From IMG/VR virus record IMGVR_UViG_3300022752_000014: a stretch of DNA of 64,000 bases; one strand, written 5' to 3'. Each line of letters starts with the position of its first letter. Within the stretch, counting starts at the first letter, position 1. The notes below the pieces were generated by a model. The model did not search any database, was not told the DNA's origin, and saw nothing but the letters and a program-made list of their open reading frames with translations. Source of the DNA: a virus. Lineage: Duplodnaviria; Caudoviricetes. Below are positions 16,091-30,179 of this stretch, one piece after another. The translations under genes were made by a program, and so were the position numbers.

Positions 16091-16564
16091 ATGAACATCA
16101 AAGCAGTTCTACTTGCAAGTTTGATTGCAGCACCTATTCCTGCTTTTGCTCAACAGACTAACATCTATTCTGTCTGCACAAACTATCAAGAAAACTATAC
16201 GCCTGGATATTATGATAGTTATGGCAACTATGTTTCTGGTCGCGTAAATACAGAACGCTATAATGTTCAGTGCGGAACTGGTACATATTATCGCCCGAAC
16301 GGTGGCAATGTTTATCAATCTCCTGTCGCAGTTCCTATTCAACAACCACAGTATCGCCAACGCATCTGTAATCCTACTGCTGGTGCAGCATTAGGCGCTG
16401 GACTTGCATCTGCACTGACTGGCAATAGTTACAATTACGGTGGAAGTTATCAGCGAAACTATAATCGCAATAGTTCTTCTGGTAGTTGGAGTAATTATGG
16501 CACAAACAGTAATGGATGGACGCTATTTGGTGCTGGTCTGGGTGCATTGCTTTACAGTTGCTAA
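16091..16564 (+). CDS. exported/membrane protein with glycine-zipper-like helices
   Basis: Signal-like N-terminus (APIPAFA-Q); AGAALGAGLASAL and LFGAGLGALL. Confidence 0.7.
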   Translation: MNIKAVLLASLIAAPIPAFAQQTNIYSVCTNYQENYTPGYYDSYGNYVSGRVNTERYNVQCGTGTYYRPNGGNVYQSPVAVPIQQPQYRQRICNPTAGAALGAGLASALTGNSYNYGGSYQRNYNRNSSSGSWSNYGTNSNGWTLFGAGLGALLYSC

Positions 16565-16592
16565 GGGGGGACGCCCAAAGTGGATCTATAGT
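16563..16592 (+). promoter_or_regulatory. G6 element copy 1 (GGATCT variant)
   Basis: Overlaps the TAA of the upstream gene. Confidence 0.8.
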
Positions 16593-16609
16593 ATAAGCAC
16601 AACTCTCAA

Positions 16610-17023
16610 ATGGCAACTCGCTCACGTATCGGTCTTGAACTTTCTGATGGCAGTATTCTCTCTGCCTATCATCACTGGGATGGTTATCCCGAATGGTTGG
16701 GTCGTATTCTGACCACTCACTACAACACTAAATCTCTTGTCGAAGAACTGATTGACGGCGGAGATATGTCCTGTGCCTGGACAGATGAGCGTTGGGATGA
16801 TACTGGCGTGAAGGGAGTTTATGGTCCTCAATACTACTCCCAGCGTGGTGATGATTGCCCTCCTCGCCTTGATGCTGACCTCTGTGAGTATCTTCTTCCT
16901 GCTAATGGTGAAGAGTATCACTACCTCTTCCGCAATGGTGAATGGGTGTGCTATAATATGAATACTTTTGAGGAAAAACTTCCCGAAGTTGTTGAAATCC
17001 CTAACGGAGCACTTGCAGTATGA
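16610..17023 (+). CDS. cyanophage-type hypothetical protein
   Basis: MATRSRIG...YHHWDGYPEWLG; first gene after copy 1. Confidence 0.75.
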   Translation: MATRSRIGLELSDGSILSAYHHWDGYPEWLGRILTTHYNTKSLVEELIDGGDMSCAWTDERWDDTGVKGVYGPQYYSQRGDDCPPRLDADLCEYLLPANGEEYHYLFRNGEWVCYNMNTFEEKLPEVVEIPNGALAV

Positions 17024-18498
17024 GTAAGAAGTACGTCATCACTTTCGCTCTTGGTTTCATTGCTATGATTGGATGGAATGTATTTTTAATCCAACGCGAT
17101 GATGCAATGTATAAAGCATACTATCGCCAGCAAGCAATAGATAATCTTAAGCATCGCCCAAGTCTTGAGATTCGGTGATATACTTTCTTATCATCTCAGC
17201 AGCATTTGGATGGTTTTTTACTGTCCTATTCTCCAAACACTTTGATTACCTAGACGAAAATGACACCAAAACGCATCAAAGACCTCATCAAAAAAGCAGA
17301 GATGAATAAAGCAGCAGAAGAGTTTTGGAAGGAAATTGAAGCAGAAGCAGCAAAGTATGAGGTTCCTGTTGATTATTATCTTGCGGAATTTTATTGATGA
17401 CTTTTCTGTTTGGAATGGGACTGGGTTCTCTACTCACAATCGGTGCAGCATTTATCTTTGCTGCTGACCGAAATATCCTTGACGAAGGCGACGAAAACTA
17501 TTACAATTAAGGAGTAATTTACACAAAACAATGACACAGAAGTTTCTTTACATCGTTCAGCACTATGTTCCTTTTCCTGCTAGTGAATATGGTGGAGTTT
17601 GGAATGTAATTGCCGAAGATGATGATGAGTGTTTTGATCTCATCTCTGCCGAAGATAATGGTGGTTTCTATGAGAAATACTATAGTGATCTCAAAGAGAA
17701 CATCTTGAACTCGCAAACATTTGCACTTGCTGAAGATGTAGATTCTAGTGTTGTTGAAAGTTTTACTACTTGATGTTAAATGAATTTCCTCACAAATCTC
17801 CAAAAGGTTATTCTTACGAATTTACCGAGTTCAAGCGAAACGTTGTCGCCATTTGGTTACGTCATTCTGCTGTCTATGACTATAATAATGGTAAATCTGT
17901 TCGGACCATTTGGGGGTTCTTCAACACCAAAACCAAAAAATATCATTTACCCGTCAACAGTTCAACAGTTGGTGGTGTAGTAAATATAAAGGATACGCGG
18001 AATTATACCGCGATGCCTATCAAACAAACACCTTTAGAAAGTGCATTTGTATGACCTACGAACCCAAATTCAATGACTATGTGAAGTGGAATAACGGAAA
18101 AGGTGTTGAGGGTTGGGTTTATTTCAAAGATAAAGAGTATATTACAATTGAAGAATTGGTGCGTCCTAAAGATAAGACTAACTATAAAGCGTGTTCAATA
18201 CATCGGAATGACCGATTACTTGTGGTTTGTTACAAAGAACAGTGGTGTGAGTTAGAGTATGTCAAAACCAGAGAATCGGTGTATGAAGAAGAAAAAGAGC
18301 AAAACACTTTGGCGCTGGTGGGCGAAAGCACTTGGGGAGAAGGCAACGAAAAATGACAGAGAAGCAGACTACATTGCTGGTGTACGGACTTTTATATTCT
18401 TCACTTATCTCATTACTAATCTTTTTATTTGTGCGGGGGTCATAAGGCACTGGAATGATGTCCCAACAATAAATAATGAAAAAGTGTTGGTAAAATGA
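17020..18498 (+). other. small hypothetical genes (17020-17178, several micro-ORFs to ~17510, 17531-17773, 17770-18054, ~18051-18356, ORF ending 18498)
   Basis: Co-oriented, mostly coupled ORFs. Confidence 0.6.
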
Positions 18499-18686
18499 AG
18501 ACGTTTCAGCAATTTATGGAACAAGTTCCTGCAATGGAACCTAACTTTTATAGTCAGCAAGTTGCAAGACGCCAAGCAACACAAAAGACTGCACATATTA
18601 AGCACGTTCATTCCGAATTAGGTGCTGAAGCAAGAGCACAACAAGCAGCGAAACGTGCTAATATGAGAGCAATTCTGTCCCGTTGA
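18495..18686 (+). CDS. putative internal head protein with a T4 IP-like N-terminus
   Basis: MKTFQQFMEQ; ATAAATA at 18469-18475. Confidence 0.6.
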   Translation: MKTFQQFMEQVPAMEPNFYSQQVARRQATQKTAHIKHVHSELGAEARAQQAAKRANMRAILSR

Positions 18687-18690
18687 TTCA

Positions 18691-18720
18691 AAGGGGGGAC
18701 GCCCAAAGTGGACCTATAGT
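18691..18720 (+). promoter_or_regulatory. G6 element copy 2
   Basis: Exact consensus, 4 bp after the TGA. Confidence 0.8.
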
Positions 18721-18738
18721 GTAAGCAACAAACGAATT

Positions 18739-18876
18739 ATGGATTCCTTTGATGATCTGCAAATTGAAGAGTTTTCTTCTTTTGACTTTGTTGAAGAGAT
18801 GAATGAACCTCTCTTTGAAGAAGAGGATAATGACAAATCCTTCAACGCTTTCCTTAACTCTAACTTTGATTTTTGA
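18739..18876 (+). CDS. very acidic, Phe-rich microprotein (45 aa)
   Basis: Read by hand: MDSFDDLQIEEFSSFDFVEEMNEPLFEEEDNDKSFNAFLNSNFDF. Confidence 0.6.
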   Translation: MDSFDDLQIEEFSSFDFVEEMNEPLFEEEDNDKSFNAFLNSNFDF

Positions 18877-18881
18877 TTAGA

Positions 18882-19082
18882 ATGTCTGAAACTATTGCCA
18901 ACGTTCTGCCTCACCTGAAAGAACTTCAACAAGATTGGCGGCGACAAGATTTTGTATTCACAAAGGATCAACAACAACAATACGATCTGTTGATTGCAAC
19001 TCGCCGCGAACGTGTGCGCCAACTGTATGAAGAAGGTCGCGTCTTCAAAGGTTCATATAAAGCAAAGGAAGAGGAGTTCTAA
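18882..19082 (+). CDS. hypothetical protein
   Basis: ATG 18882 inside the ORF-track 18873 ORF. Confidence 0.65.
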   Translation: MSETIANVLPHLKELQQDWRRQDFVFTKDQQQQYDLLIATRRERVRQLYEEGRVFKGSYKAKEEEF

Positions 19083-19108
19083 ATACTAAAAAGAGTGTTT
19101 AGATAACG

Positions 19109-19708
19109 ATGAAGACGTTTCAGGAGTTTATGTCTCTTTGTGAAGATGTTCAGACGGGAGAAGACAAATCCAAAGCACTTGGATTTGCTGCAACCATCAA
19201 AACTGCACAAAAAGGTGGAAGAATCCGCCCTGAACGTAAAAAGACAACTCCTGAAATACGTCGCGTAAAAGCAGTTGGTGGTGGAAAGACCGAACCAGTT
19301 GAGTATAAACCAAGAAAAGACATTGGAACTGAACGTAAAGCAGAAACAAGAGTCCAGCAACCAGAACAAGAACGTGGAAGTGCAAGAGAAGCACAATTAG
19401 CAGCAGCAAAAGAAGAAAGAAGGAAAGCAGCACAAGCAAGAATTGCTGCAAAGAAAGCAGGTGCAAAACCTGAAGCAGCAAAACCAAAAGCAAAAGAAGC
19501 AGAAAAGGCAGCAACAAAATTACTGTCTAAAAAGAAACCAGAAACAAAACCAGCAGCAGGATACAAACCACCCAAAGCATCGGGACTTTCTACAAAAGAA
19601 AGAAAAGCACTCCTCAAGAAAGGTGAAAGAACTTTGCGTGATATTGTTCTCTCATCAACAGGTAAAAAGTCCGAAAAGGAACTTAAGCACAAATATACCT
19701 CCAAGTAA
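19109..19708 (+). CDS. Lys/Ala-rich putative internal head / DNA-binding protein
   Basis: MKTFQEFMSLCE N-terminus; histone-like K/A/P tract; CTAAATA at 19079-19085. Confidence 0.65.
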   Translation: MKTFQEFMSLCEDVQTGEDKSKALGFAATIKTAQKGGRIRPERKKTTPEIRRVKAVGGGKTEPVEYKPRKDIGTERKAETRVQQPEQERGSAREAQLAAAKEERRKAAQARIAAKKAGAKPEAAKPKAKEAEKAATKLLSKKKPETKPAAGYKPPKASGLSTKERKALLKKGERTLRDIVLSSTGKKSEKELKHKYTSK

Positions 19709-19710
19709 TT

Positions 19711-19740
19711 AAGGGGGGACGCGCAAAGTGGACCTATAAT
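19711..19740 (+). promoter_or_regulatory. G6 element copy 3 (GCGC, TATAAT variant)
   Basis: 2 bp after the TAA. Confidence 0.8.
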
Positions 19741-19780
19741 AGATACGCCACTAGACCCTTCTAGAATCGCCTACAACATC

Positions 19781-19975
19781 ATGGAAACAGTGACTATAGG
19801 GGTTGATACCCTGAAACGTATAATTCGTGACCTTGAGAGTGCAGTGAGTGTGTGTCACAATGTTGATTCATCTCAAGGTGCAGATTCCGAAAAAACGTAT
19901 CCTTATGCGACAGGATACTCGCGTGCTGCGATGACCTCTGCTATAATGGATCTTAACAACCTGATTGCCAAGTGA
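19781..19975 (+). CDS. hypothetical protein
   Basis: First ORF after copy 3; GTGA overlap with the helicase. Confidence 0.65.
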   Translation: METVTIGVDTLKRIIRDLESAVSVCHNVDSSQGADSEKTYPYATGYSRAAMTSAIMDLNNLIAK

Positions 19976-21147
19976 TTACTCTTCGTCCTCATCAAATCCG
20001 TGCTGTTGCTGCTATGCAAAAGCACAATAAAGGTCAGGTCATTGTGCCTACTGGTGGTGGTAAAACGCTGAAGATGATCTATGATACGATGCGTCAGTTT
20101 CAGTCTGAAACTCCGCAGACTGTTGTAGTTGTTGCTCCGCGTATTCTGCTTGCGGAGCAGTTGTCTTCTGAGTTTCTGGAGCATATCACTACTGCTGCTG
20201 TGTTTCATATTCACAGCGGAGAGACGCATCATGAAAGTTCTACTCGTCCTGCTGAGATTTGTGCGTGGGTTGAGAACAACAACTCTCGCCACAAGTTGAT
20301 CTTCACTACCTACAACTCTTTGCAGCGCATTGTTGATGCTGAGATTGATGTGGATACGATCTACTTTGATGAGGCACATAACAGCGTTCAGCGTCACTTT
20401 TTTCCTGCAACTGAGCACTTCAGTGCTAATGCTACCCGTTGCTACTTCTTTACTGCAACCAGGAAAACATCACTCACTCCTTCTAAACCAGGAATGAATG
20501 ATCGTGAGGTCTATGGTGATATTATTTGCCGCGTATCTGCTCCTGAACTTGTTGATGGAGGATACATTATTGCTCCTAAAATTGTAGCAAAGAAGTTTGA
20601 GGTTCTTGCTCCAAAACAGGTAACTGCTGAGTGTGACAGTAGCAATCTGATGGAAACTCTGGAGGATATTGACTGCAAAAAGATTCTGGTTTGTGTTAAG
20701 TCTGCGAAGCAACTTATCAACCTGATGTCTCATACTGACTGTGCTGCTCAACTAAATCAGCGTGGTTATTCTTATCTCTACATCACCTCAAAAACGGGAG
20801 CGATTATTGATGGTAAGAAGGTAAATCGTGAGGTATTTTTTGACACGCTCAACTCTTGGGGTCGTGACCCTAACAAGAAGTTTGTTTGCTTCCATCGCTC
20901 TATTTTGAGTGAAGGAATTAACGTAAGCGAACTAGAGGCGGTCGTCTTTCTTCGCAATATGAATGTAATCGAAATGACGCAAACTATCGGTCGCGTCCTT
21001 CGCCTCGGTGGCAAAGAGAAGGTTTTCGGTCTCTGTGTTGTACCCGTATATTCCAAAGTTGGAGTATCTACAGAGCGAGCACTTCAGCGAGTTGTTGATA
21101 CTGTGTTTGAGAAGGGTGAGATGCTTGATAGTGTTGTTCGTCGCTAA
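19972..21147 (+). CDS. superfamily 2 DEAH helicase (ResIII-like)
   Basis: PTGGGKT, YFDEAH, TAT, LSEGINV, QTIGRVLR. Confidence 0.9.
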   Translation: MITLRPHQIRAVAAMQKHNKGQVIVPTGGGKTLKMIYDTMRQFQSETPQTVVVVAPRILLAEQLSSEFLEHITTAAVFHIHSGETHHESSTRPAEICAWVENNNSRHKLIFTTYNSLQRIVDAEIDVDTIYFDEAHNSVQRHFFPATEHFSANATRCYFFTATRKTSLTPSKPGMNDREVYGDIICRVSAPELVDGGYIIAPKIVAKKFEVLAPKQVTAECDSSNLMETLEDIDCKKILVCVKSAKQLINLMSHTDCAAQLNQRGYSYLYITSKTGAIIDGKKVNREVFFDTLNSWGRDPNKKFVCFHRSILSEGINVSELEAVVFLRNMNVIEMTQTIGRVLRLGGKEKVFGLCVVPVYSKVGVSTERALQRVVDTVFEKGEMLDSVVRR

Positions 21148-21172
21148 ATAATCCAAGAGTTGCTGTAAAGAA

Positions 21173-21586
21173 ATGGACATTTTTGAAGATTTGAAACATT
21201 TTCCTTTTGATGAAAATTATGAAATTCTGTCGGACTGGTGTTCTGGTAAGCGCAATAGATTTTATGGGTTAAAGCACACTGAAGAATCAAAACAAGTTAT
21301 GAGCAAATCAATTAAAGAGCAATTTGCTAACGGCAGGGTGACTCACAATAAAGGAAAATATGCTCCAGATGATACTGTTGGATATAGTGCTCTTTATATG
21401 AGAGAGTATAGGGAAGGAAAGAAAAGAGTTTCAAAAGATAGACGATATATTACTCCCGATGGTAAAACAATTACAGTTGAAGATGTAAAAAAATACTGCA
21501 AAGAGAATGGATTAACCTATCAAAGTATGTTAAAGTTGCACAGAGGAATACTCAATCAACATAAAGGATACAGGAAAGCGCGGTGA
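21173..21586 (+). CDS. NUMOD3-type DNA-binding protein (homing-endonuclease remnant)
   Basis: FYGLKHTEESKQVMS...THNKGK; YITPDGKTITV...YCKENGL; no recognisable GIY-YIG or HNH domain. Confidence 0.7.
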   Translation: MDIFEDLKHFPFDENYEILSDWCSGKRNRFYGLKHTEESKQVMSKSIKEQFANGRVTHNKGKYAPDDTVGYSALYMREYREGKKRVSKDRRYITPDGKTITVEDVKKYCKENGLTYQSMLKLHRGILNQHKGYRKAR

Positions 21587-21590
21587 ACAA

Positions 21591-21773
21591 ATGAAAGAGG
21601 GTTTCTTAGTTTCTAATGGACTCTACGCTGCTGTACCTTATGGCAACAAAGGATACATCATTATACACAATGGTCAGCAACTTGAGAAAGTGTGTAGAAC
21701 TGAAGATTCTGCACGAAAGTATATCAATGCTCATCGTAAGGGTAAATCAGTCGCACAACTTCCCGTTGATTAA
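21591..21773 (+). CDS. hypothetical protein
   Basis: Its stop abuts copy 4. Confidence 0.65.
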   Translation: MKEGFLVSNGLYAAVPYGNKGYIIIHNGQQLEKVCRTEDSARKYINAHRKGKSVAQLPVD

Positions 21774-21803
21774 AAGGGGGGACGTGCAAAGTGGACCTAT
21801 AGT
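21774..21803 (+). promoter_or_regulatory. G6 element copy 4 (GTGC variant)
   Basis: Directly after the TAA. Confidence 0.8.
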
Positions 21804-21817
21804 ATCACCAAAAAATT

Positions 21818-22705
21818 ATGTTTGTCACTGAGGATCTCAAATCTGCTGTGAATGAGGCAGAGTCATTTCAACAAGAGAGCAGTTATTCTGACTTGATTTG
21901 TCTCAAATCCACGAAAGGTGGTGTTGGTCTTAACACCTTTGAGACTGCACTTGTCAATGCCAAAGAGTATATGAGCGATGAGGATGTTACGTTCTATCGT
22001 AACTTTTATCGCAACTATTCTTCTCCTCTTTGTGTTCTTCCTAAAGGGCACAGTGGCAAATGTTCTTGTTCCTATGGTAAGTTCTTTGTTGATAAGTTTG
22101 CAAAGAAAATTAAGGATTGTGATACTACTCCTGGAGATGATGACATTCTCTACAAAAATCGAGCACGTCGTATCTTTCCCATTCAGGTTAATAAGAATCA
22201 ATACACAGTTCTGAACGCAAAATATACTTGGAAGGCAAAAAATATCAAAATGAAAGCAGCAATCCCCGCTGAGTTTGGTGGCACTAATTTCACCATTGCC
22301 ACCGCACATTTTGACTTTGCTGCTATTTTGCTGCTGCAAAAAGGAATTGAGCATAAACTATCCGAAGATGTGGAGTTTAAGTTGCTTGAACGTGCTCAAG
22401 ACATTGTTGATGAGTTTGTAGCACAGGGCATCGACATTGTTGATGAGAATGGACAACTTTGTTGCCCTGTGTTAGGATGTACTATTGAACCAGAATGGTA
22501 CGAGACTGATGATAAGAACCCAAATCAAGTTCAGTTTGGTCACGTCCAACCGATTCGCTCCGATAAGTATATGACCCGTGGTGGTAATGTTGTACCTATC
22601 ACCCGCAACGGTAACCTAATGCAATCCGATAAATCTATTCAGCAAACTTATGCAGACCAAGAAGCAGCAGTCGAACGTCGTAAAGCAAGGAGATTGCCTT
22701 GTTGA
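21818..22705 (+). CDS. putative type II restriction endonuclease, HNH-type (BstXI-like)
   Basis: LCVLPKGHSGKC, TPGDDDILYKNRARR, C-terminal CCPVLG...FGHVQP...GNVVPITRNGNLMQ; overlaps a methyltransferase gene. Confidence 0.55.
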   Translation: MFVTEDLKSAVNEAESFQQESSYSDLICLKSTKGGVGLNTFETALVNAKEYMSDEDVTFYRNFYRNYSSPLCVLPKGHSGKCSCSYGKFFVDKFAKKIKDCDTTPGDDDILYKNRARRIFPIQVNKNQYTVLNAKYTWKAKNIKMKAAIPAEFGGTNFTIATAHFDFAAILLLQKGIEHKLSEDVEFKLLERAQDIVDEFVAQGIDIVDENGQLCCPVLGCTIEPEWYETDDKNPNQVQFGHVQPIRSDKYMTRGGNVVPITRNGNLMQSDKSIQQTYADQEAAVERRKARRLPC

Positions 22706-23591
22706 GTTAGAAAAATTAGAAGATAAATCAGTCGATCTCATTCTCATTGATCCGCCATACAACATCGGCAAAGATGAATGGGACGACTTTGGAATCACCA
22801 AAAAAGGTTATCAACCAAAACCCTATACTGGTGAATCTTACTATGACTGGATGCAAGAAGTATTTGTTGCACTAAGTCGCGTTATGAAAGATTCAGGTTC
22901 ATTCTGGTTCTTTCACAATGACTTTAGAATGATGGCAGAATTGGATCGACGTATTCAATCTACCACGGACTTTGAGTATAAAAATTTTATTGTCTGGAAT
23001 AAGTTATTTCCTGGATGCAAACAAGAGGGATTCTTGAATGGTTTTGTGCAAGTTGAAGGTCTAAACAATTTCCAGAAAATGGCAGAGTATATGTTATTCT
23101 ATACTCGCAAAGATATTCATCTTAAGTTAAAAGAACGACGGATGGAGTTAGGTGTTAAATCATCTGATATTAGCAAGGAGATATTGAGTAAAACTGGTGG
23201 ATTGACTGGTTGGTACAGTAACATTGAAACTGGTAAAAATTACCCCACAGAGGAGACAATTATTCCAATTACCAAATATTTGGGATTCACAATGAACGAT
23301 CTTGTGCCAAAGTTCTATAATCAGAAGAACAGTCATTCTATTTGGCAATATGATTTTGATTCCAAAAAGATGGGTCATTTAACACCAAAACCAATCGAAT
23401 TGCTTAAAAACATTATTGTTCATTGCACTGATCCTGGTGATTTAGTTTTAGATTGTTTTGGTGGGAGTGGTAGCACTGCTGTTGCATGTATTGAAACTGA
23501 TCGTAACTATCTGTTGATCGAAAAAGAACAAAAATATGTTGAGATTGCGGAAGATAGGATAGCACGGTATTCTGCACGATTGCCTATCTGA
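22650..23591 (+). CDS. beta-class N4-C/N6-A DNA methyltransferase with an internal XRE-like HTH
   Basis: GDCL...DLILIDPPYN, HLTPKPIELL, LDCFGGSGSTA; insert LKERRMELGVKSSDIS...YSNIETGKNYP. Confidence 0.92.
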   Translation: MQTKKQQSNVVKQGDCLVELEKLEDKSVDLILIDPPYNIGKDEWDDFGITKKGYQPKPYTGESYYDWMQEVFVALSRVMKDSGSFWFFHNDFRMMAELDRRIQSTTDFEYKNFIVWNKLFPGCKQEGFLNGFVQVEGLNNFQKMAEYMLFYTRKDIHLKLKERRMELGVKSSDISKEILSKTGGLTGWYSNIETGKNYPTEETIIPITKYLGFTMNDLVPKFYNQKNSHSIWQYDFDSKKMGHLTPKPIELLKNIIVHCTDPGDLVLDCFGGSGSTAVACIETDRNYLLIEKEQKYVEIAEDRIARYSARLPI

Positions 23592-23595
23592 TTGA

Positions 23596-23625
23596 AAGGG
23601 GGGACGCCCAAAGTGGACCTATAGT
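23596..23625 (+). promoter_or_regulatory. G6 element copy 5
   Basis: Exact consensus; ATG follows immediately. Confidence 0.8.
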
Positions 23626-24516
23626 ATGAAGAACACTCATCTCGAACATCCTGAAGATTCTATCCTCAGCGGTGACCTTTCTGTGTTAGATTGGTTCACT
23701 GCTGGTGGTGACCTCAGTGTAAAGATTGACGGTGCTCCTGCTGTTGTTTGGGGTACGAATCCTGCAACTGGTAAGTTCTTTGTGGGCACCAAGAGTGTGT
23801 TCAACAAAGTAAAGATCAAGATCAACGAATCACACGAAGACATTGATGCGAACCACCAAGGAAATGTCGCGCAAATCCTTCATTGCTGTCTGGATTCTTT
23901 GCCTCGCATCGCTGGCATTGTGCAAGGTGACTTTATCGGGTTTGGTGGACTTTCGGAATACACTCCCAATACTATCACCTACCAGTTCCCAGAAGTAATC
24001 ACTCAAAGCATCATCATTGCTCCGCATACTTGTTACGTTGCGAAGAATGATCTGCGTGATGCTGTTGCAATCCCCGACTTTTATCTGTGGATTGATACAT
24101 CTCACGTCAAGTTTGTAAAACCTGAAGCATATATCGCTCACGGTCAAGATTCGTTTGCTGATGTCAAAGAAGTCTGCGATTTTGCCCGTCAAATGTCAAC
24201 AATGTGTCAGTTTGTTCAGGGTAAGCAACTTGCCAACCTGAAGAAACAACTTAATGCCAAGATTCGTGAGGGTCTTCCTATCAGCGACACTGACACCTTT
24301 GATTGCGATCCTAACTTGATTCGTCTGTGGTCATTGGTAAAATCAATCAAAGATGATTGTTTGTTCCTGTGTCGCAATTATGGTCCTGCAGCATATCTGA
24401 ACAGCAACAGAATTGATGCGGAAGGTTATGTCCTCACCAATCAGTTTGGTATGATGAAGTTGGTCAATCGTGAGGTATTCTCTCATGCAAACTTCAATCT
24501 AGCAAAGAATTGGTAA
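23626..24516 (+). CDS. cyanophage protein (DUF6267-like) with nucleotidyltransferase/ligase-like motifs
   Basis: MKNTHLEHPED; SVKIDG, VQGDF, AEGYVL, MMKLVN. Confidence 0.6.
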   Translation: MKNTHLEHPEDSILSGDLSVLDWFTAGGDLSVKIDGAPAVVWGTNPATGKFFVGTKSVFNKVKIKINESHEDIDANHQGNVAQILHCCLDSLPRIAGIVQGDFIGFGGLSEYTPNTITYQFPEVITQSIIIAPHTCYVAKNDLRDAVAIPDFYLWIDTSHVKFVKPEAYIAHGQDSFADVKEVCDFARQMSTMCQFVQGKQLANLKKQLNAKIREGLPISDTDTFDCDPNLIRLWSLVKSIKDDCLFLCRNYGPAAYLNSNRIDAEGYVLTNQFGMMKLVNREVFSHANFNLAKNW

Positions 24517-24544
24517 GGGGGGACGCCCAAAGTGGACCTATAGT
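24515..24544 (+). promoter_or_regulatory. G6 element copy 6
   Basis: Overlaps the TAA; ATG follows immediately. Confidence 0.8.
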
Positions 24545-25003
24545 ATGAGCAACACTACCATGCAAGTCCAAGCACAGCAAGTCATTGCAGATTCGGTCCT
24601 TAAGAATACCTATCTGCTGATTGAAGCACTCAAAGACAATTATCGTCAGTATTCTATCCGTTCTCATCAACGTTCTGTAGAGAACTTTGACTTTACTTAT
24701 GATGGATCTCCTTCGGTTCAGTCGCAATATCATCAGCAGAAGATTGATGAACTCAAGTCTGGCAAGTGTGACATTGATTATACCATTGAGTCTGGCAAAA
24801 AGTATCACAAAGTCATCTTTATTGATGGTGGCGGTGGTCGCTCTGCTCACTGCTTCGTTGACAAAAAGACTGGCGAAGTGTATAAGTCGGAATCCTGGAA
24901 GTCTCCTGCCAAAGGTGTACGTTACGACCTGCGATTGATCGCTGATCGTGAATACCTGCTGGAAAATGCTGATTGGTCGGGTGGTTATTTGTACGCAAAG
25001 TGA
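24545..25003 (+). CDS. phage hypothetical protein
   Basis: GKKYHKV...HCFVDKKTGEVYKSESWKSPAKGVRYDL. Confidence 0.75.
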   Translation: MSNTTMQVQAQQVIADSVLKNTYLLIEALKDNYRQYSIRSHQRSVENFDFTYDGSPSVQSQYHQQKIDELKSGKCDIDYTIESGKKYHKVIFIDGGGGRSAHCFVDKKTGEVYKSESWKSPAKGVRYDLRLIADREYLLENADWSGGYLYAK

Positions 25004-25008
25004 TTGAA

Positions 25009-25272
25009 ATGACTTACTCTAACCTCTCCAAGATTCGCCCGAAGTTGAGAACATCGGGCAACATTACTGGTAATTTTGGTAAATCAAAGGTCAAAGCAGG
25101 ATCTACACTCAATGACATTGGTGTAAGTAATGCTGAAGTCATCAAATGTACCACACAAGATGAATACCTGAAGCGACTGTATTATGCTTTTGATAACACT
25201 TCCGAACCTAAACTTCGTCAGTTCATTTATACTGAGATCAAGAAGATTCACATTCAGAGAGGAACTTGGTAA
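25009..25272 (+). CDS. hypothetical protein
   Basis: MTYSNLSKIRPKLRT; ATG 25009. Confidence 0.7.
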   Translation: MTYSNLSKIRPKLRTSGNITGNFGKSKVKAGSTLNDIGVSNAEVIKCTTQDEYLKRLYYAFDNTSEPKLRQFIYTEIKKIHIQRGTW

Positions 25273-25281
25273 GGTGATGCA

Positions 25282-25311
25282 AAGGGGGGACGCCCAAAGT
25301 GGACCTATAGT
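25282..25311 (+). promoter_or_regulatory. G6 element copy 7
   Basis: Exact consensus; ATG follows. Confidence 0.8.
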
Positions 25312-26327
25312 ATGAGCAACACTACGATGGATCAAGTCTTCCACTATCACACCAACTGGAAAGAGGGTAAAGTGAATCAAATGTGGATTCAGCAAGTTAC
25401 ACCCGAATGGCAAGAATGTGACCACAAATACGTTGCCATCGCTCTCAATCCTGAAACTAACAAAAGCATGGTAATGTCTCATCCTCGCAGTCATTATGAT
25501 ACTCTCCAGTGGGTTCGTAAGTTCTGCGGTTCTTTCTGCATCCTGAACTGATTATGAAAAACTATCGTCTGTTGATTGAGTATTGGGTTCCTGATGAAGA
25601 TGAGAACCTATACGAAGAAAAGTTCATTCAATCGCGTTCATCTTGTGGTAAAATTGCTGATGATTACTTAGCACAAGACCGCACAAATCTTATCCGTTCC
25701 GTTGAAGTTACCCCTGTTTGATTATGGCAAATAACAATACTCTCGCACATCTTCGTGATCGTGTGCAACGTTTGATTGAACAACAGGGCGAAGATGCACC
25801 TGCTGCTGCATTTATCTTTACCAACGAAGATGTATTTGTTTGGGATGAAGATGGTGGCAATCAAATACCTGTAGAGCGTGATATTGCGTTCGACATTCTC
25901 AACGAAGTTGAAGACTATGATTATATCTACACGCAAGTGTTTGATCTCATCGAAGAAGAAATCAAGTCTCGCAATCTTAACAACAAATGACTGAGCACAC
26001 TGGTTACACTTTCAATCGCGTTGAGTTCACTGCAAACGAGGAAACTTGCATCCTGAAGTTTCTCAATGAAGCACGAGAATGTGGATACCCAAGTAAGAAC
26101 GAACAATGGTATCCTGTCATCGATTCTATCATTCAAAAGTTTTTCGATTCTAACATTCAAGAAGCACAGGAGTTTCAGACACGATGAAGTACATTGTTGA
26201 TCTATACGTTGGTGGTAAAGTCTTCAAGGAAGAAGTACAAGCAAACTCACCAAAAGATGCACGAGAGACTGCACTTGCTCGCAATCCTACTGCAAAAGTT
26301 GTGAGTGTCAATGTCAGTTTTCGATGA
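25312..26327 (+). other. module of five small genes (25312-25551, 25554-25721, ~25724-25990, 25987-26187, 26184-26327)
   Basis: Co-oriented, closely spaced ORFs; two read by hand. Confidence 0.7.
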
Positions 26328-26331
26328 TTGA

Positions 26332-26361
26332 AAGGGGGGACGCCCAAAGTGGACCTATAGT
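26332..26361 (+). promoter_or_regulatory. G6 element copy 8
   Basis: Exact consensus; ATG follows. Confidence 0.8.
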
Positions 26362-26932
26362 ATGAGAACAACTTTCACCGTCCGTTTTGATTCCAATGCC
26401 CTGGATTCTCCAGAGTACATTGGACCTTTCTACTCCGAAGATGATGCCCAAGACTATTGCGATGCCCGTAACGGTTCTTTAGCACTTTCTGGGATTCCTT
26501 CTTCTGTTGCTTGTTACTCTGTTGTTGACTGATGATGACACAAACCACTCTTACTTTTGAGGAGATTGATGCTCTCCTTAAGTTCATTGAGTTTCACACT
26601 GATTCATTACGAATTGATGAAGAATCTGCGGAGGAATTGAATGAACTTATTGGGTGCGATGTTGATGCACTCTACAATAAACTTTCTGAAATGCAGGATG
26701 AAGTCTAATGCAATTCCAAGTTACCACAATCGAGTTTGATTTTACTGAAGATAATGACATTCTGCGTGGCACAGATGCAGAATGGCAAGAATACCAACAA
26801 ATCGTAATTGATGACACGTTAGCAACAATTTGGGAGGCATGTGATGAAGATGATCTAGTCGAAGAGATTACATGTGCAACTGGTTGGTGTATCAAGTCCA
26901 TCGATTATCGCCATGTTCTTAACACTTTCTAA
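26362..26932 (+). other. module of three small acidic genes (26362-26532, 26532-26708, 26708-26932)
   Basis: TGATG/TAATG overlaps. Confidence 0.7.
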
Positions 26933-26943
26933 TTGATGAAACA

Positions 26944-26973
26944 AAGGGGGGACGCCCAAAGTGGACCTATAGT
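26944..26973 (+). promoter_or_regulatory. G6 element copy 9
   Basis: Exact consensus; ATG follows. Confidence 0.8.
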
Positions 26974-27695
26974 ATGAACACTACTCCTTTCAACTTCCAA
27001 ACCGACATCACTCCTGCACTTCTGGAGTTTATGCTCAATACTGCACCTTTCACTGATTTGAATGATTGTGTAGATTTTGTCTGCAATGTTTTTGACCTCG
27101 ATGCAACTGATGAATTGATTGATTCGATTGCTGATGAGTTCGATGCTTTCTTCGGTAACTGAAATGTTTATTCTGAATGATACAGCAAAGAATGATTCTG
27201 CTGTTCAACTTGCACTGAGAGAGTATGCACAACGTCTTCAAGATGAGGAAGATTATCGTCAGAAAGTTTTATCAGGTGAGGTAATTCCACAACGCACAAC
27301 AGTTCATAACATCTCTGACCGTGACTAAAATTATCTCACTTGTGTTCATTGTAGCACTACTTTTCTCACCGTCGATTCGTTCACTGACTGCCAACACTTT
27401 ACATACTGTTGCTGACATTATCTCACCACAACAATGACATTCTCAACTGACCAAATCTCCTCTCTTAAAGCACTCATTGAGTTTCATGATGATTGGGAAG
27501 AATTAAGCGAACTTCTTGGCACTGATATTGAAACTCTCTACAATGTAGTCTGCTCACTTGATAAAAACAATGATTGAAACTGATTATCACACAATTCCCA
27601 CAAACATCTACGACAAGATTAAAGAACAAGCAGAGGAGTTAGGTATTTCGATTGATTACTTTTTGATGGAGTTTTGTAAGGTTTCCGATTCCTGA
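26974..27695 (+). other. module of microgenes (26974-27162, ~27164-27328, ~27321-27437, 27434-27577, ~27570-27695)
   Basis: Co-oriented short ORFs. Confidence 0.6.
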
Positions 27696-27699
27696 ATCA

Positions 27700-27729
27700 A
27701 AGGGGGGACGCCCAAAGTGGACCTATAGT
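27700..27729 (+). promoter_or_regulatory. G6 element copy 10
   Basis: Exact consensus, 4 bp after a TGA. Confidence 0.8.
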
Positions 27730-27750
27730 ATAAGCACTCAACCAACCATC

Positions 27751-28477
27751 ATGCGTAAGATCGAACAACAAATCATCTCTGCAATTCGTAACAACAAGGA
27801 TCTGAAAGTTGCGAACACTCAAGTCATCAACTATACCAACAGTTCTGATGTTTATCTGCACGGTAATCTGATCGCTCGGATTGGCGAAACCTGGATGGAA
27901 TTGTTCCATGCTGGGTATCAAACAAACACCACAAAAAGTCGTCTTAATGCACTTCTCCAAGCGTTCGGTATGGAAGGTGAGTATATCTTCCAGAAGAACT
28001 TTCAGTGGTTTATTAACTATCAAGGAGCACCGATTCCGTTCTTTAATGGTATGCGTCTGAACTGAATCTATCACTCTTCATTCACACTTACTCAACACAA
28101 ACAAAATGGAACTTACTCAAGACCAATACGATAAACTTCTTGCCAACTATATTGAGCAGATTGTTGATGGTATGGATCTCGACAGTTTGGTACAATTTGC
28201 AAGCGAACAACTTGAACTGAATCTGCGTGAAAGTTGCTCAACTCCAGATGAACTGATCGAAGAGATTTCACTCTTTTATGATGAAGACTATGTGAATGAT
28301 ATGGTGGAAAGTGTACTTAACTGATAAGAGTTTGATACAATGAGAACAACGATTCGCTGGTTTTGTCCTTATTCTCAAGGGTGGAAGTTTCAAGGGTTTA
28401 ATACCTACAATGAAGCAGAAAGAATGGTTGATTTTTATACACGAGCAGGGACGATTGCATCTATTATGACATACTAA
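27751..28477 (+). other. module of three genes (27751-28065, 28106-28324, 28340-28477)
   Basis: Co-oriented ORFs ending at a terminator. Confidence 0.7.
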
Positions 28478-28480
28478 CTC

Positions 28481-28506
28481 AGAGGGGATTACACCCCTCT
28501 TTTTTT
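28481..28506 (+). terminator. rho-independent terminator
   Basis: AGAGGGG-ATTACA-CCCCTCT followed by a T-run. Confidence 0.85.
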
Positions 28507-28729
28507 ATGCTTTTTCGTCAAAATAAGGTTAAAAAGGTATTAAATCAATTAAAAAATGTAATTAAAAATATAAATGAGTGATTTATTTGTTATTGATACG
28601 TATTCTCAATAAGGGTGATAATGCTATGAATTCGTATCAATTAGAGGGCATTAATCGTCTATTAAATGTGCTGAGACCTTGTGATTTAGACCCTTATAAA
28701 TGTGCTGAAGTCTTGTGATCTTTGCGTGC

Positions 28730-28758
28730 ATTGTATCAGCACTCCGCCAAAATGTCAA
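28730..28758 (-). promoter_or_regulatory. leftward sigma70-like promoter
   Basis: - strand TTGACA, 17 bp, TACAAT with extended TGn; no ORF downstream. Confidence 0.7.
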
Positions 28759-28815
28759 GTCCCCCGCTGTCACAAAATCCCCACAATCCCCCCGCATAAA
28801 ATCCACACCCCGCCG

Positions 28816-28863
28816 ATAAATACTCCCCAGGACGTTGACAATAATTCCCAGGTATCTTATAGT
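28816..28863 (+). promoter_or_regulatory. late ATAAATA plus near-consensus sigma70 promoter
   Basis: ATAAATA 28816-28822; TTGACA 28835-28840, 17 bp, TATAGT 28858-28863. Confidence 0.8.
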
Positions 28864-28891
28864 ATCTAAAGAACACCAACGGAGCGTACCT

Positions 28892-29065
28892 ATGTCAGTA
28901 GCGTATCAACAAGCGCAGAAGCAGCGTTATAGAATCACTCTGGATCTATCAGTGTTCGGTGACTTCGACCCCCACCAGATTGACTGGGAGAAGTTATTCA
29001 AACTGGAACCTGCGGAAAAGTGTGAAGCATACGTTGAGGACTTAAGTACACCTGACCGTTGGTGA
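28892..29065 (+). CDS. cyanophage-type hypothetical protein
   Basis: GGAG RBS, MSVAYQQAQKQRYRITLDLSV; the ORF-track TTG start is the promoter -35. Confidence 0.75.
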   Translation: MSVAYQQAQKQRYRITLDLSVFGDFDPHQIDWEKLFKLEPAEKCEAYVEDLSTPDRW

Positions 29066-29098
29066 GTTGGTAACAACGAACGTGCTGTGAGTGAATCA

Positions 29099-29128
29099 AA
29101 GGGGGGACGCTTAAAGTGGACCTATAGT
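29099..29128 (+). promoter_or_regulatory. G6 element copy 11 (GCTT variant)
   Basis: ATG follows immediately. Confidence 0.8.
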
Positions 29129-30179
29129 ATGAACATCAACGACCTCCTCTCCAGCATCGCTCTCACTGAAGAACTTGCGATGGAAAACTATCAACAACGC
29201 AATGGAGTTGTTGATTATCGCCTCGATGGAGTTTGTAATCACTACTTCCCCAAATATACCTGGAGTGGTCTTAATGACGGTGAAGTTTGCCTGACCTGTA
29301 AAGTTTCCAAGACTGTAAAAGGGCAGTTCCGTTATACCTTTCAAGTGGACGGTAAGCGTATCGCAGAGAAGATGATTGTCTCTGAGTTCCTTGCTCTTGG
29401 TGCGCTTCGGTAAGTTATACTTAAGTCTCACACAGTTCTTTACATTTTCCAAACACAAATGACCGTCACTTTCCAAACAAATCTGTCTGACACTGAGTAT
29501 AACGGTTGGACGAATTATGAAACCTGGAATGTTGCTCTCTGGATCAACAATGATGAGGGTTTGTATCGCCTTGCTCAAGAGTGTGGTGATTATCAAACCT
29601 TCTGTGATTACGTTGGTTCAGATGCAGTAACTGGTGATGGGGTTCGTTATAATGACCCCGCTGTAAATGTCGTCCAGATTGATAGTGACGTTTTCGACTA
29701 CTGATTCACACTTAACACTCACACTTTCGTTATCAACAATCATGCGTTACATTCCGTCTTCCCGTTATACTCTGGATGAGATCGCAGAGCAATGTCGTGC
29801 TGCTATCAATCGTCCCGCTCAGTATCACAAACCAGTGGTGATCAATGTTTATGATGAGGTGCGTAAGTTCTATCGCTACAATGACACTTCGAAGTTCTGG
29901 AGTTATGATGCACCACTGATCGCACAGTAAGGTATACAAAGGGGAATGAGATGCGCCCCTATAAAGACACTCACTCAACACACAGTTATTAACACTTAAC
30001 AACACAAAATGTCCAAGTCGATTGCACTTTCTCTGCTTGCTCAAGGTAACAACGGCAATGAGATTCTGTCCATTCTCGATGCACTCGTCGCTGATAATGT
30101 GAGTGGTTTTGATTATATCGAATCGCCCGTGATTGAGCAGGTGATTGGTGTTCCTACACTCAAGGAGATTGCGTTCTAA
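29129..30179 (+). other. last module genes (29129-29413, 29459-29704, ~29741-29930, 30009-30179)
   Basis: Co-oriented ORFs; YNGWTNYETWNVALWINNDEG in 29459; 30009 read by hand. Confidence 0.7.

What the first reader, a model, noticed from the sequence alone, without database searches (positions are those of the whole stretch)
21774..23625. Candidate complete restriction-modification system as a single module between copies 4 and 5
Seen: a 295-aa ORF with a Cys/His N-terminal motif and an HNH-like C-terminus overlaps a beta-class MTase by 56 bp, and the pair is bounded exactly by two G6 elements. From memory the motifs resemble the BstXI family (CxLxxGHxGK; TP.G...Y.N; late CP..., H..P, N...Q); this needs confirming. 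Phages usually carry orphan MTases, and intact R+M pairs are uncommon. The nuclease is first in the transcript. Inference: pre-methylated virion DNA is protected while host or co-infecting phage DNA is cut.
Basis: partly seen in the sequence, partly recalled or inferred. Interest (0 to 1): 0.72.

Follow-up and report, generated by a model that had tools for sequence, protein, structure and literature searches.

The report
Phage-borne DraIII-type restriction-modification gene pair
A T4-like cyanophage from lake water carries an intact pair of genes, a DNA-cutting enzyme related to DraIII and its protective methylase, and genomes with this pair have removed the enzyme's likely target word from their own DNA, which suggests that the enzyme really cuts in infected cells.

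Summary
A 295-aa ORF (21818-22705) overlaps a beta-class N6-adenine methyltransferase gene (22650-23591) by 56 nt, and two copies of a 32-nt junction repeat bracket the pair.

The ORF matches no Pfam, PHROG or NCBIfam model. Its confident AlphaFold model matches only DraIII (PDB 4L0K; Z 12.4, 194 of 208 residues). A profile of 61 relatives hits DraIII at E 8e-12. The catalytic His and Asn and the N-terminal Cys/Cys/His/Cys zinc site are invariant. DraIII's second zinc site is missing.

The methylase ortholog lies beside the nuclease homolog in 44 of 44 viral loci, in tandem or convergent. Carriers include cyanophage P-SSM2, giant-virus contigs and a Gracilibacteria contig.

New here: carrier genomes are depleted 2- to 20-fold in CA-N5-TG, and four non-carrier cyanophages are not. 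This phage has no CACNNNGTG (DraIII's site) in 107 kb, where 13 are expected.

Verdict: a genuine virus-borne type IIP restriction-modification system and a divergent DraIII relative. The BstXI assignment is not supported. The role, cutting unmethylated host or rival DNA, is inferred.

Earlier unchecked notes of this scan report other restriction cassettes and site-purged genomes in cyanophages, and one DraIII-like enzyme in a bacterium.

The parts
21773..21804 (+). Junction repeat copy 4 (32 nt), just upstream of the nuclease gene. It probably carries the module's expression signal.
   Evidence: 11 copies against 0 expected; alignment. Relatives carry their own lineage-specific repeats at the same two positions around the pair.
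21818..22705 (+). R gene: 295-aa restriction endonuclease of the DraIII family (HNH, beta-beta-alpha-metal).
   Evidence: AF2 model pLDDT 93.5. DraIII 4L0K: Foldseek E 4e-5; VIA Z 12.4, 194/208 aligned, next best Z 4.2. Profile against PDB: E 7.7e-12. dN/dS 0.08-0.15.
21899..22063 (+). N-terminal zinc-site residues C28, C72, H78 and C82, including the motif C-V-L-P-K-G-H-S-G-K-C.
   Evidence: C28, C72 and H78 are invariant and C82 is >=90% conserved in 61 diverse homologs. The motif aligns to DraIII C22/H28/C32. In DraIII these residues bind zinc and are essential.
22529..22624 (+). Beta-beta-alpha-metal catalytic core, residues 238-269: general base H242, N257, and metal-binding N266.
   Evidence: H242 and N266 are invariant and N257 is >=90% conserved. 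They align to DraIII H183, N193 and N202. H183A and N202A inactivate DraIII. Model: strands 238-242 and 258-262, helix 263-269.
22650..22705 (+). 56-nt overlap of the R 3' end with the M 5' end.
   Evidence: The same overlap occurs in the close relatives L002-L015. P-SSM2-type relatives instead have a gap of 5-14 nt.
22650..23591 (+). M gene: 313-aa beta-class N6-adenine DNA methyltransferase.
   Evidence: PF01555 at E 3.6e-42; phrog_67 at 1e-64. Nearest solved structures are M.MboIIA and CcrM. dN/dS 0.04-0.06.
22749..22760 (+). MTase motif IV, DPPY (residues 34-37).
   Evidence: Read from the translation; aligned to M.MboIIA DPPY.
23457..23477 (+). MTase motif I, FGGSGST (residues 270-276), the AdoMet-binding motif.
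   Evidence: Aligned to M.MboIIA FMGSGTT.
23595..23626 (+). Junction repeat copy 5, just downstream of the M stop codon. Its last base is the A of the next gene's ATG.

Best explanation
The two genes form a working type IIP restriction-modification system carried by a T4-like cyanomyophage.

R is a divergent relative of DraIII.
- Its N-terminal domain is held by a Cys-Cys-His-Cys zinc site.
- Its C-terminal beta-beta-alpha-metal (HNH) domain has H242 as general base and N266 as metal ligand.
- It most likely acts as a homodimer joined through the C-terminal domains.

M is a beta-class N6-adenine methyltransferase that marks the same word.

The target class of the family is a gapped palindrome with a CA-N5-TG core. 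In this phage the target is most likely CACNNNGTG, which is DraIII's site.

Both genes are read from one unit that starts at the upstream junction repeat, with R first and M overlapping it.

Inferred, not shown:
- Virion DNA arrives already methylated and is nearly free of sites, so it survives.
- Unmethylated host DNA and DNA of rival phages are cut.
For: Shown by tools:

1. Fold and sequence homology to DraIII over almost its whole length.
- Model pLDDT 93.5.
- Foldseek E 4e-5, probability 1.0.
- VIA Z 12.4, rmsd 4.2, 194 aligned; the next entry has Z 4.2.
- Profile of 61 homologs against DraIII: E 7.7e-12 over residues 13-222 of 227.

2. Conserved functional residues. The catalytic H242 and N266 and the zinc ligands C28, C72 and H78 are invariant in 61 sequences that share as little as 21% identity. 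The DraIII residues they align with are essential for activity.

3. Purifying selection on both genes: dN/dS 0.08-0.15 for R and 0.04-0.06 for M.

4. Strict linkage of R and M.
- The M ortholog (50-93% identity) is adjacent in 44 of 44 IMG/VR loci that have downstream DNA. It lies in tandem or convergent, while R falls to 26% identity.
- The pair is also convergent in a Gracilibacteria contig.
- Among 50,697 phage records, R and M occur in exactly the same 5 records.

5. Site avoidance.
- An unbiased scan of 2816 dinucleotide-gap-dinucleotide patterns puts CA-N5-TG as the only gapped pattern among the strongest carrier-specific depletions (ratio 0.35, p 9e-224).
- Whole carrier contigs against the counts at gaps in the same codon phase: 35 vs about 520, 53 vs about 410, 53 vs about 275, 6 vs about 125, 24 vs about 150; P-SSM2 671 vs about 1450.
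- Four non-carrier cyanomyophages show no depletion.
- CACNNNGTG against its reversed control: carriers 19:63, non-carriers 271:280, Fisher p 8e-6.
- This phage has 0 CACNNNGTG in the 64-kb window (8.2 expected). It again has 0 in 43 kb more of the same phage, fetched afterwards (4.8 expected). Total: 0 against 13.0, with the control GTGNNNCAC at 10.

6. Homodimer model.
- Score 0.68; best of 3 controls 0.00.
- In calibration the mark was reached by 20 of 30 proteins solved as pairs of one chain and by 1 of 23 solved as single chains.
- The runs agree in at least 94% of contacts, and the partner's pLDDT is at least 91.
- A DraIII dimer has been solved, so this pass may reflect likeness to that structure.
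Against: - No enzyme activity, methylation or expression was measured.
- The protein itself matches no Pfam, PHROG or NCBIfam model, including PF21586 DraIII.
- DraIII's second zinc site (C157, C160, H198, C201) is essential in DraIII. Here the aligned residues are C216, L219, T262 and G265, so the site is not conserved.
- This phage is not depleted in CA-N5-TG overall: 345 against 325, 412 and 400 at the same-phase gaps. Only 8-32 kb is about half-depleted. Its target may therefore be narrower than in its relatives, or the cassette may be recent.
- No substitutions in R or M track the strength of depletion.
- P-SSM2 does not avoid CACNNNGTG more than other CA-N5-TG words.
- Avoidance is correlative evidence.
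Confidence: 0.8

Rival explanations
1. The pair is a selfish, mobile R-M cassette. It persists by post-segregational killing or by recombination between junction repeats, and gives the phage little benefit. The nuclease is active, but its 'role' is only its own maintenance.
For: - The pair sits as one module in a repeat-bounded accessory island.
- Relatives have their own repeats at the same borders.
- Nearly identical R genes sit in backgrounds with very different purge levels: L009 ratio 0.06, L011 ratio 0.54. This suggests recent transfer between genomes.
- The family occurs in cyanophages, giant viruses and a CPR bacterium.
Against: - Depletion of a four-base-equivalent word by 5- to 20-fold across whole genomes implies long residence and sustained nuclease pressure in several lineages.
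- Strong purifying selection on R.
- Selfishness and usefulness are not mutually exclusive.
Confidence: 0.3
2. Avoidance of the site is imposed by host R-M systems of the same specificity. The phage methylase is an anti-restriction device, and the nuclease is a passenger or is inactive.
For: - Phage methyltransferases are commonly read as anti-restriction (general knowledge; PMC12801897).
- Cyanophages avoid several other palindromes, such as GGCC and CATG, whether or not they carry this pair.
Against: - P-RSM3 is not depleted, although it was isolated on the same host strain as the carrier P-SSM5 (NATL2A): CA-N5-TG 1259 against 1228 and 1351; CACNNNGTG 33 against control 27.
- Depletion follows the pair into giant-virus contigs, which have quite different hosts.
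- M never occurs without R in 50,697 phage records.
- R is intact, with invariant catalytic residues and dN/dS of about 0.1.
Confidence: 0.1
3. The 295-aa protein is a free-standing HNH homing endonuclease or DNA-repair nuclease that merely lies beside an orphan methylase.
For: - HNH homing endonucleases are common in T4-like phages.
- The upstream ORF 21173-21586 has weak NUMOD3 and homing-endonuclease-like matches.
Against: - The similarity to DraIII covers both domains, not only the HNH core.
- Linkage to the same methylase family is kept through changes of gene orientation and down to 26% identity.
- The predicted dimer is symmetric.
- The motif avoided by carriers is palindromic.
- The gene is not inserted into a conserved gene, an intron or an intein.
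Confidence: 0.04

Closest known systems
R.DraIII / M.DraIII of Deinococcus radiophilus (type IIP, CACNNN^GTG; PDB 4L0K; Pfam PF21586; PMC3996161)
   Same: [quoted passage not shown]
- General-base His and metal-binding Asn.
- N-terminal Cys-Cys-His-Cys zinc site, with the shared motif C.LP.GHSGKC.
- Predicted dimer through the C-terminal domain.
- Gapped-palindrome target class.
- This phage lacks DraIII's exact site in 107 kb.
   Different: - About 21% identity, and no hit of PF21586 to this protein.
- About 70 extra residues: an N-terminal helix bundle and an insert between the first two zinc ligands.
- The second, C-terminal zinc site is absent.
- An extra conserved loop, YMTRGGN, lies between the two strands.
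- It is carried by lytic viruses.
- In most carriers the avoided word is the looser CA-N5-TG.
Restriction-modification systems of chloroviruses, such as the CviAII and CviJI systems of PBCV-1-like viruses (from general knowledge)
   Same: - They are virus-encoded type II R+M pairs with short, frequent target words.
- They are thought to degrade host DNA while the viral DNA is methylated.
- Distant members of the present family lie in giant-virus contigs, one of them beside a major capsid gene.
   Different: - The named chlorovirus enzymes have contiguous target words, not gapped ones.
- Their sequences were not compared here, so kinship was not examined.
- No virion association or host-DNA degradation has been shown for the present pair.
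BstXI (CCANNNNN^NTGG; Pfam PF09552), with PflMI/Esp1396I (CCAN5TGG), BstAPI (GCAN5TGC) and AlwNI (CAGNNNCTG)
   Same: - All recognise gapped palindromes with outer CA...TG. The recognition sites are from general knowledge; Esp1396I is quoted in PMC10644984.
- One distant family member touches the C-terminal end of RE_BstXI at E 0.038.
   Different: - RE_BstXI does not match the window protein.
- Protein-level kinship of PflMI, BstAPI or AlwNI with this family was not tested here.
Other phage-borne restriction enzymes reported by this scan in cyanophages: a Bsp6I-like GCNGC cassette, a PvuII-fold CATG nuclease and a CTAG nuclease (unchecked AI notes)
   Same: - A restriction enzyme carried by a T4-like or large phage.
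- The phage's own genome is purged of the target word.
   Different: - The nuclease folds and target words differ.
- Several of those cases lack a methylase. Here the methylase is always kept.

Membership tests
DraIII-family HNH type IIP restriction endonuclease (PDB 4L0K, PF21586) | Beta-beta-alpha-metal core with a general-base His and a metal-binding Asn. | tested here: met
   H242 and N266 are invariant in 61 homologs. They align to DraIII H183 and N202. The model has strands 238-242 and 258-262 and helix 263-269.
DraIII-family HNH type IIP restriction endonuclease (PDB 4L0K, PF21586) | Whole-protein fold: N-terminal helical domain plus C-terminal HNH domain. | tested here: met
   VIA Z 12.4, rmsd 4.2, 194 of 208 residues aligned, model 25-291; the next entry has Z 4.2. 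Foldseek E 4e-5, probability 1.0.
DraIII-family HNH type IIP restriction endonuclease (PDB 4L0K, PF21586) | N-terminal zinc site Cys-Cys-His-Cys (DraIII C4, C22, H28, C32). | tested here: met
   C28, C72 and H78 are invariant and C82 is >=90% conserved. C72/H78/C82 align to C22/H28/C32. The match of C28 to C4 is inferred from the structural range only. Metal binding itself cannot be tested here.
DraIII-family HNH type IIP restriction endonuclease (PDB 4L0K, PF21586) | C-terminal zinc site (DraIII C157, C160, H198, C201), essential in DraIII. | tested here: not met
   The aligned residues are C216, L219, T262 and G265. T262 is invariant among the cyanophage homologs.
DraIII-family HNH type IIP restriction endonuclease (PDB 4L0K, PF21586) | Match to the curated Pfam model PF21586. 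| tested here: not met
   No Pfam family matches at E<=1. Only distant relatives reach the model: P0305 scores 27.3 bits against a cut-off of 27. Homology rests on the profile built here (E 7.7e-12).
DraIII-family HNH type IIP restriction endonuclease (PDB 4L0K, PF21586) | Homodimer through the C-terminal domain. | tested here: inconclusive
   The model supports the dimer: score 0.68, best control 0.00. The mark was reached by 20 of 30 proteins solved as pairs of one chain and by 1 of 23 solved as single chains. Runs agree in at least 94% of contacts; pLDDT is at least 91; the interface is 206-221 and 264-291. This may reflect likeness to the solved DraIII dimer.
DraIII-family HNH type IIP restriction endonuclease (PDB 4L0K, PF21586) | Recognition of CACNNNGTG and cleavage that leaves 3-nt 3' overhangs. 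| not testable with these tools
   Only indirect evidence: 0 sites against 13.0 expected in 107 kb of this phage. The family-wide avoided word is the looser CA-N5-TG.
Type II restriction-modification system | A separate nuclease gene and a cognate methyltransferase gene that are adjacent and inherited together. | tested here: met
   Adjacent in 44/44 viral loci, in tandem or convergent, and in a Gracilibacteria contig. Present together in the same 5 of 50,697 phage records.
Type II restriction-modification system | Methylation of the target protects it against cleavage by the partner nuclease. | not testable with these tools
   This needs a methylome and cleavage assays.
Beta-class N6-adenine / N4-cytosine DNA methyltransferase (PF01555) | Match to the Pfam model, with motif IV (D/S)PPY before motif I FxGxG. 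| tested here: met
   E 3.6e-42, 145 bits against a cut-off of 26.7. DPPY at 34-37 and FGGSGST at 270-276. DPPY points to N6-adenine by general knowledge; the base methylated was not tested.
BstXI family (PF09552 RE_BstXI) | Match to the curated Pfam model. | tested here: not met
   No hit at E<=1 for the window protein. One of 61 family members hits the last 84 model positions at E 0.038, below the cut-off.
Free-standing HNH homing endonuclease | Not tied to a methylase; lies in or beside the gene it targets; has a long asymmetric target. | tested here: not met
   It is always paired with the same methylase family. The predicted dimer is symmetric. The avoided word is palindromic.

The most novel reading that the evidence does not exclude
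This is a previously unrecognised, virus-specialised branch of the DraIII family. Most of its members would cut the very frequent word CANNNNNTG, a specificity I could not find described. Cyanophages and giant viruses of eukaryotes would share it and use it offensively to shred host and rival DNA. The carriers have rewritten their own genomes to remove up to 95% of the sites and methylate the rest. Within the branch, specificity would tighten and loosen: CACNNNGTG in this phage, CA-N5-TG elsewhere.
Probability: 0.4. Interest if true: 0.78.

Novelty: new variant of a known kind. Interest (0 to 1): 0.62.

Why it matters
- Lytic phages are usually seen as targets of restriction that carry only orphan methylases. 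Here a T4-like cyanophage lineage, including the long-studied P-SSM2, keeps a complete restriction system. In the P-SSM2 records the nuclease gene (PSSM2_067) is annotated as a hypothetical protein.
- The scale of the genome-wide loss of the target word is an unusually clear sign that the nuclease acts during infection.
- It gives a concrete candidate for host-DNA breakdown or for exclusion of competing phages in picocyanobacteria.
- It offers a candidate new restriction specificity that can be tested in a week of bench work.
- It links phage and giant-virus gene pools.
- It shows that avoidance analysis can assign target words to unannotated viral nucleases.

Tried and rejected
Searches that found nothing or could not be run:
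- Pfam, PHROG and NCBIfam scans of R gave no hit. Neither did phmmer of R against PDB sequences.
- Megablast of the module against phage records found nothing.
Bacterial DraIII-type loci, including that of Deinococcus, could therefore not be fetched.
- No whole genome is held for the window.
- The records behind L035, L037, L038, L044 and L130-L132 are not held for pattern searches.

Analyses that led nowhere:
- A null model using the other gap lengths of the same half-site proved too noisy, because of codon periodicity. It was replaced by carrier against non-carrier comparisons and by gaps in the same codon phase.
- A search for substitutions in R or M that track depletion strength found none. 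Nearly identical R genes sit in strongly and weakly purged loci, and M is evenly conserved, including its middle region.

RNA evidence:
- One transcriptomic run holds an identical 252-nt contig inside M (23047-23298).
- A second 'RNA' run, probably DNA, holds identical pieces at the R start and in M.
- Contigs cannot show transcription, so no claim of expression is made.

Other:
- The exact window repeat is absent from all 129 fetched loci.
- A literature search for CANNNNNTG returned only longer sites such as CCAN5TGG.
- Searches for a described R-M system in P-SSM2-like cyanophages found none. REBASE could not be consulted.
Full report
WHAT IS THERE

On the + strand, ORF 21818-22705 (295 aa) is followed by ORF 22650-23591 (313 aa). 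They overlap by 56 nt. A 32-nt repeat occurs 11 times between 16562 and 29129, against 0 expected. Its copies at 21773-21804 and 23595-23626 bracket the pair.

The window is part of a T4-like cyanomyophage.
- Neighbouring genes are a helicase, terminase, sheath, portal and gp23.
- Its structural genes are closest to Synechococcus phage Bellamy.
- Identical DNA is found mainly in lake and other freshwater metagenomes, and in some sediment metagenomes, from about ten studies.

THE METHYLASE

The downstream gene is an ordinary beta-class DNA methyltransferase.
- PF01555 matches at E 3.6e-42.
- DPPY lies at residues 34-37 and FGGSGST at residues 270-276.
- The nearest solved relatives are M.MboIIA and CcrM.
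- A weak helix-turn-helix signal (E 0.015, below threshold) lies in the middle, in the region where target recognition is expected.

THE NUCLEASE

The 295-aa protein matches nothing in Pfam, PHROGs, NCBIfam or PDB sequences.

It has about 60 close homologs, all unannotated. They include PSSM2_067 of Prochlorococcus phage P-SSM2, which sits beside the annotated DNA methyltransferase PSSM2_068.

An exhaustive profile search of 1.84 billion representatives finds only 151 clusters.

An AlphaFold model built on 24 homologs is confident (pLDDT 93.5, pTM 0.91). It matches one solved structure far above all others, the type IIP enzyme DraIII (4L0K).
- Foldseek: E 4e-5, probability 1.0.
- VIA: Z 12.4, rmsd 4.2, 194 of 208 residues aligned. 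The next entries are Cas9 HNH domains at Z 4.2 and PacI at Z 3.4.

A profile of 61 diverse family members then reaches DraIII by sequence, at E 7.7e-12 over residues 13-222 of 227. One distant member passes the Pfam DraIII model.

Mapping onto the DraIII paper (PMC3996161):
- H242 aligns with the general base H183.
- N266 aligns with the metal ligand N202.
- N257 aligns with N193.
- C72, H78 and C82, in the shared motif C.LP.GHSGKC, align with C22, H28 and C32 of the first zinc site. C28 probably corresponds to C4.
- Of these residues, C28, C72, H78, H242 and N266 are invariant in the 61 sequences; C82 and N257 are conserved in at least 90%.
- DraIII's second zinc site (C157, C160, H198, C201) is not kept. 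The aligned residues are C216, L219, T262 and G265.

The protein also has about 70 extra residues. It is a divergent branch of the family, not a plain member.

A single distant relative touches its C-terminal end at E 0.038.

A homodimer model passes its controls.
- The score is 0.68 and the best control 0.00.
- The mark was reached by 20 of 30 proteins solved as pairs of one chain and by 1 of 23 solved as single chains.
- The runs agree in at least 94% of contacts, and pLDDT is at least 91.
- The interface lies in the C-terminal domain, as in DraIII.
- Because the DraIII dimer has been solved, this may reflect likeness to it.

ARE THE TWO GENES A SYSTEM?

- In all 44 IMG/VR loci with DNA downstream of an R homolog, an orthologous methylase (50-93% identity) is adjacent. 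It lies in tandem in most loci and convergent in four, while R identity falls to 26%.
- A Gracilibacteria MAG contig has the convergent form.
- Among 50,697 phage records, R and M occur in exactly the same five records: P-SSM2 three times, P-SSM5, and one virus from a single-cell amplified genome.
- Both genes are under strong purifying selection: dN/dS 0.08-0.15 for R and 0.04-0.06 for M.
- Distant members lie in true giant-virus contigs. One pair sits beside an NCLDV major capsid gene. Another contig carries N-myristoyltransferase and thymidine kinase genes.

TARGET WORD, INFERRED FROM AVOIDANCE

I first tested DraIII's site, CACNNNGTG.
- It is absent from the window, where 8.2 are expected and other gap lengths give 3-10.
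- In whole records, counts of the site against its reversed control are 13:33 for P-SSM2 and 14:32 for P-SSM5, and 1:7, 1:7, 1:7, 0:3, 1:3 and 3:5 for six carrier contigs.
- Nine non-carrier cyanomyophages sum to 271:280.
- Leaving out P-SSM5 and one near-duplicate contig and adding the window (0:5), the carriers sum to 19:63; Fisher p is 8e-6.

A differential scan then showed that the avoided word in most carriers is broader: CA-N5-TG.
- Of 2816 dinucleotide-gap-dinucleotide patterns, CA-N5-TG is the only gapped one among the strongest carrier-specific depletions (ratio 0.35, p 9e-224).
- Whole carrier contigs hold 35, 53, 53, 6 and 24 copies, where gaps in the same codon phase give about 520, 410, 275, 125 and 150.
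- P-SSM2 holds 671 against about 1450, evenly along its genome.
- P-RSM3, Bellamy, RN05-S and S-8S53 are not depleted.
- P-RSM3 was isolated on the same host strain as the carrier P-SSM5. This argues against a cause in the host.

THIS PHAGE IS THE ODD ONE

CA-N5-TG is not depleted in it overall (345 against 325, 412 and 400). Only 8-32 kb is about half-depleted.

To test the narrower reading, I walked 43 kb further along an assembly contig that is 100% identical to the window's end. CACNNNGTG is again absent there (0 against 4.8 expected). The total is 0 against 13.0 in 107 kb, while the control GTGNNNCAC occurs 10 times. Sites with one CAC half and one CAA half are about halved (35 against 64).

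The simplest reading is that this enzyme cuts CACNNNGTG, like DraIII, and that its relatives read only the CA...TG core. A recent arrival of the cassette is the alternative.

Neither R nor M shows substitutions that track the difference. M is evenly conserved across carriers, so it may methylate the broad word everywhere. This point remains open.

MODULE BORDERS

Relatives carry their own repeats at the same two borders of the pair.
- L003 has a variant of the G-rich element.
- L007 has an unrelated 29-nt repeat, identical on both sides of the pair.
- L019 has a 65-nt element.
- The window's exact element occurs in none of 129 loci.

The borders therefore look like lineage-specific expression signals, one per module, and not like part of the R-M system.

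HOW IT MOST LIKELY WORKS

Shown:
- An intact DraIII-type HNH nuclease and a cognate-type methylase, always linked and under selection.
- Genome-wide loss of a gapped CA...TG palindrome in carriers.

Inferred:
- R dimers cut unmethylated sites in host or rival DNA soon after infection.
- The phage genome is safe because it arrives methylated, is re-methylated after replication, and holds few or no sites.
- R and M are translated from one message, and the 56-nt overlap may couple them.

Not shown: activity, methylated base, timing of expression, or any benefit to the phage.

NOVELTY

- Type II systems and the DraIII fold are known, and virus-borne R-M systems are known from chloroviruses.
- New here: the recognition that this unannotated cyanophage gene family, P-SSM2's gene included, is a DraIII relative; its variant architecture; its spread to giant viruses; and the avoidance signature that predicts its target.
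- I found no paper that describes it. REBASE could not be checked.
- Earlier unchecked notes of this scan report other restriction cassettes and site-purged genomes in cyanophages, and one DraIII-like enzyme in a bacterium. The general theme therefore recurs.

Noticed in passing
window 1-64000: CATG is very rare in this phage: 34 copies against about 250-320 expected, far below the four non-carrier cyanophages. Earlier notes of this scan link CATG-free cyanophages to a PvuII-fold nuclease. I did not look for such a gene here.
   Followed up: partly
window 8001-32000: CA-N5-TG is about half-depleted only in the early/accessory region (68 against about 120), not in the structural genes. One possible explanation is that this region is exchanged with purged relatives. 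This remains unexplained.
   Followed up: partly
window 16562-29129; L003, L007, L019: Related phages have their own junction repeats at the same intergenic positions, and the repeats are quite different from one lineage to the next. This looks like concerted evolution of a promoter-like signal, one per module. In 7 of the 11 window copies the next gene's ATG follows TATAGT directly.
   Followed up: partly
window 23589-23643 and 24510-24562: In other freshwater samples, contigs that end in junction-repeat copies 5 and 6 continue into sequence that lies beside other copies in this window, for example downstream of copies 9 and 11 (loose ends). This may be an assembly ambiguity at a 32-nt repeat, or real reshuffling of modules.
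   Followed up: no
L138 10279-11127 (same phage, about 25 kb beyond the window's right end); L137 9438-10355: The same phage also encodes a Dam-type methylase (PF02086). A near-identical strain from another sample carries an S-adenosylmethionine lyase gene (PF23780) that is absent at that position in this one.
   Followed up: no
L037 3749-7384; L044 3743-8312: Distant copies of the R-M pair lie in giant-virus contigs. One sits directly beside an NCLDV major capsid gene. Another lies near N-myristoyltransferase and thymidine kinase genes.
   Followed up: partly
window 21173-21586: A 137-aa ORF has weak NUMOD3 and homing-endonuclease-like matches but no nuclease domain. It may be a remnant of a homing endonuclease, or a DNA-binding protein.
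   Followed up: no
window 23100-23330 (M residues about 150-220): A weak helix-turn-helix signal (HTH_19/HTH_3, E about 0.015, below threshold) lies inside the methylase, between motifs IV and I, where the target-recognition region is expected.
   Followed up: no
Bellamy genome (L082-L092): The non-carrier phage Bellamy is strongly depleted in CA-N1-TG: 193 copies against about 1000. Another restriction specificity may have shaped that genome.
   Followed up: no
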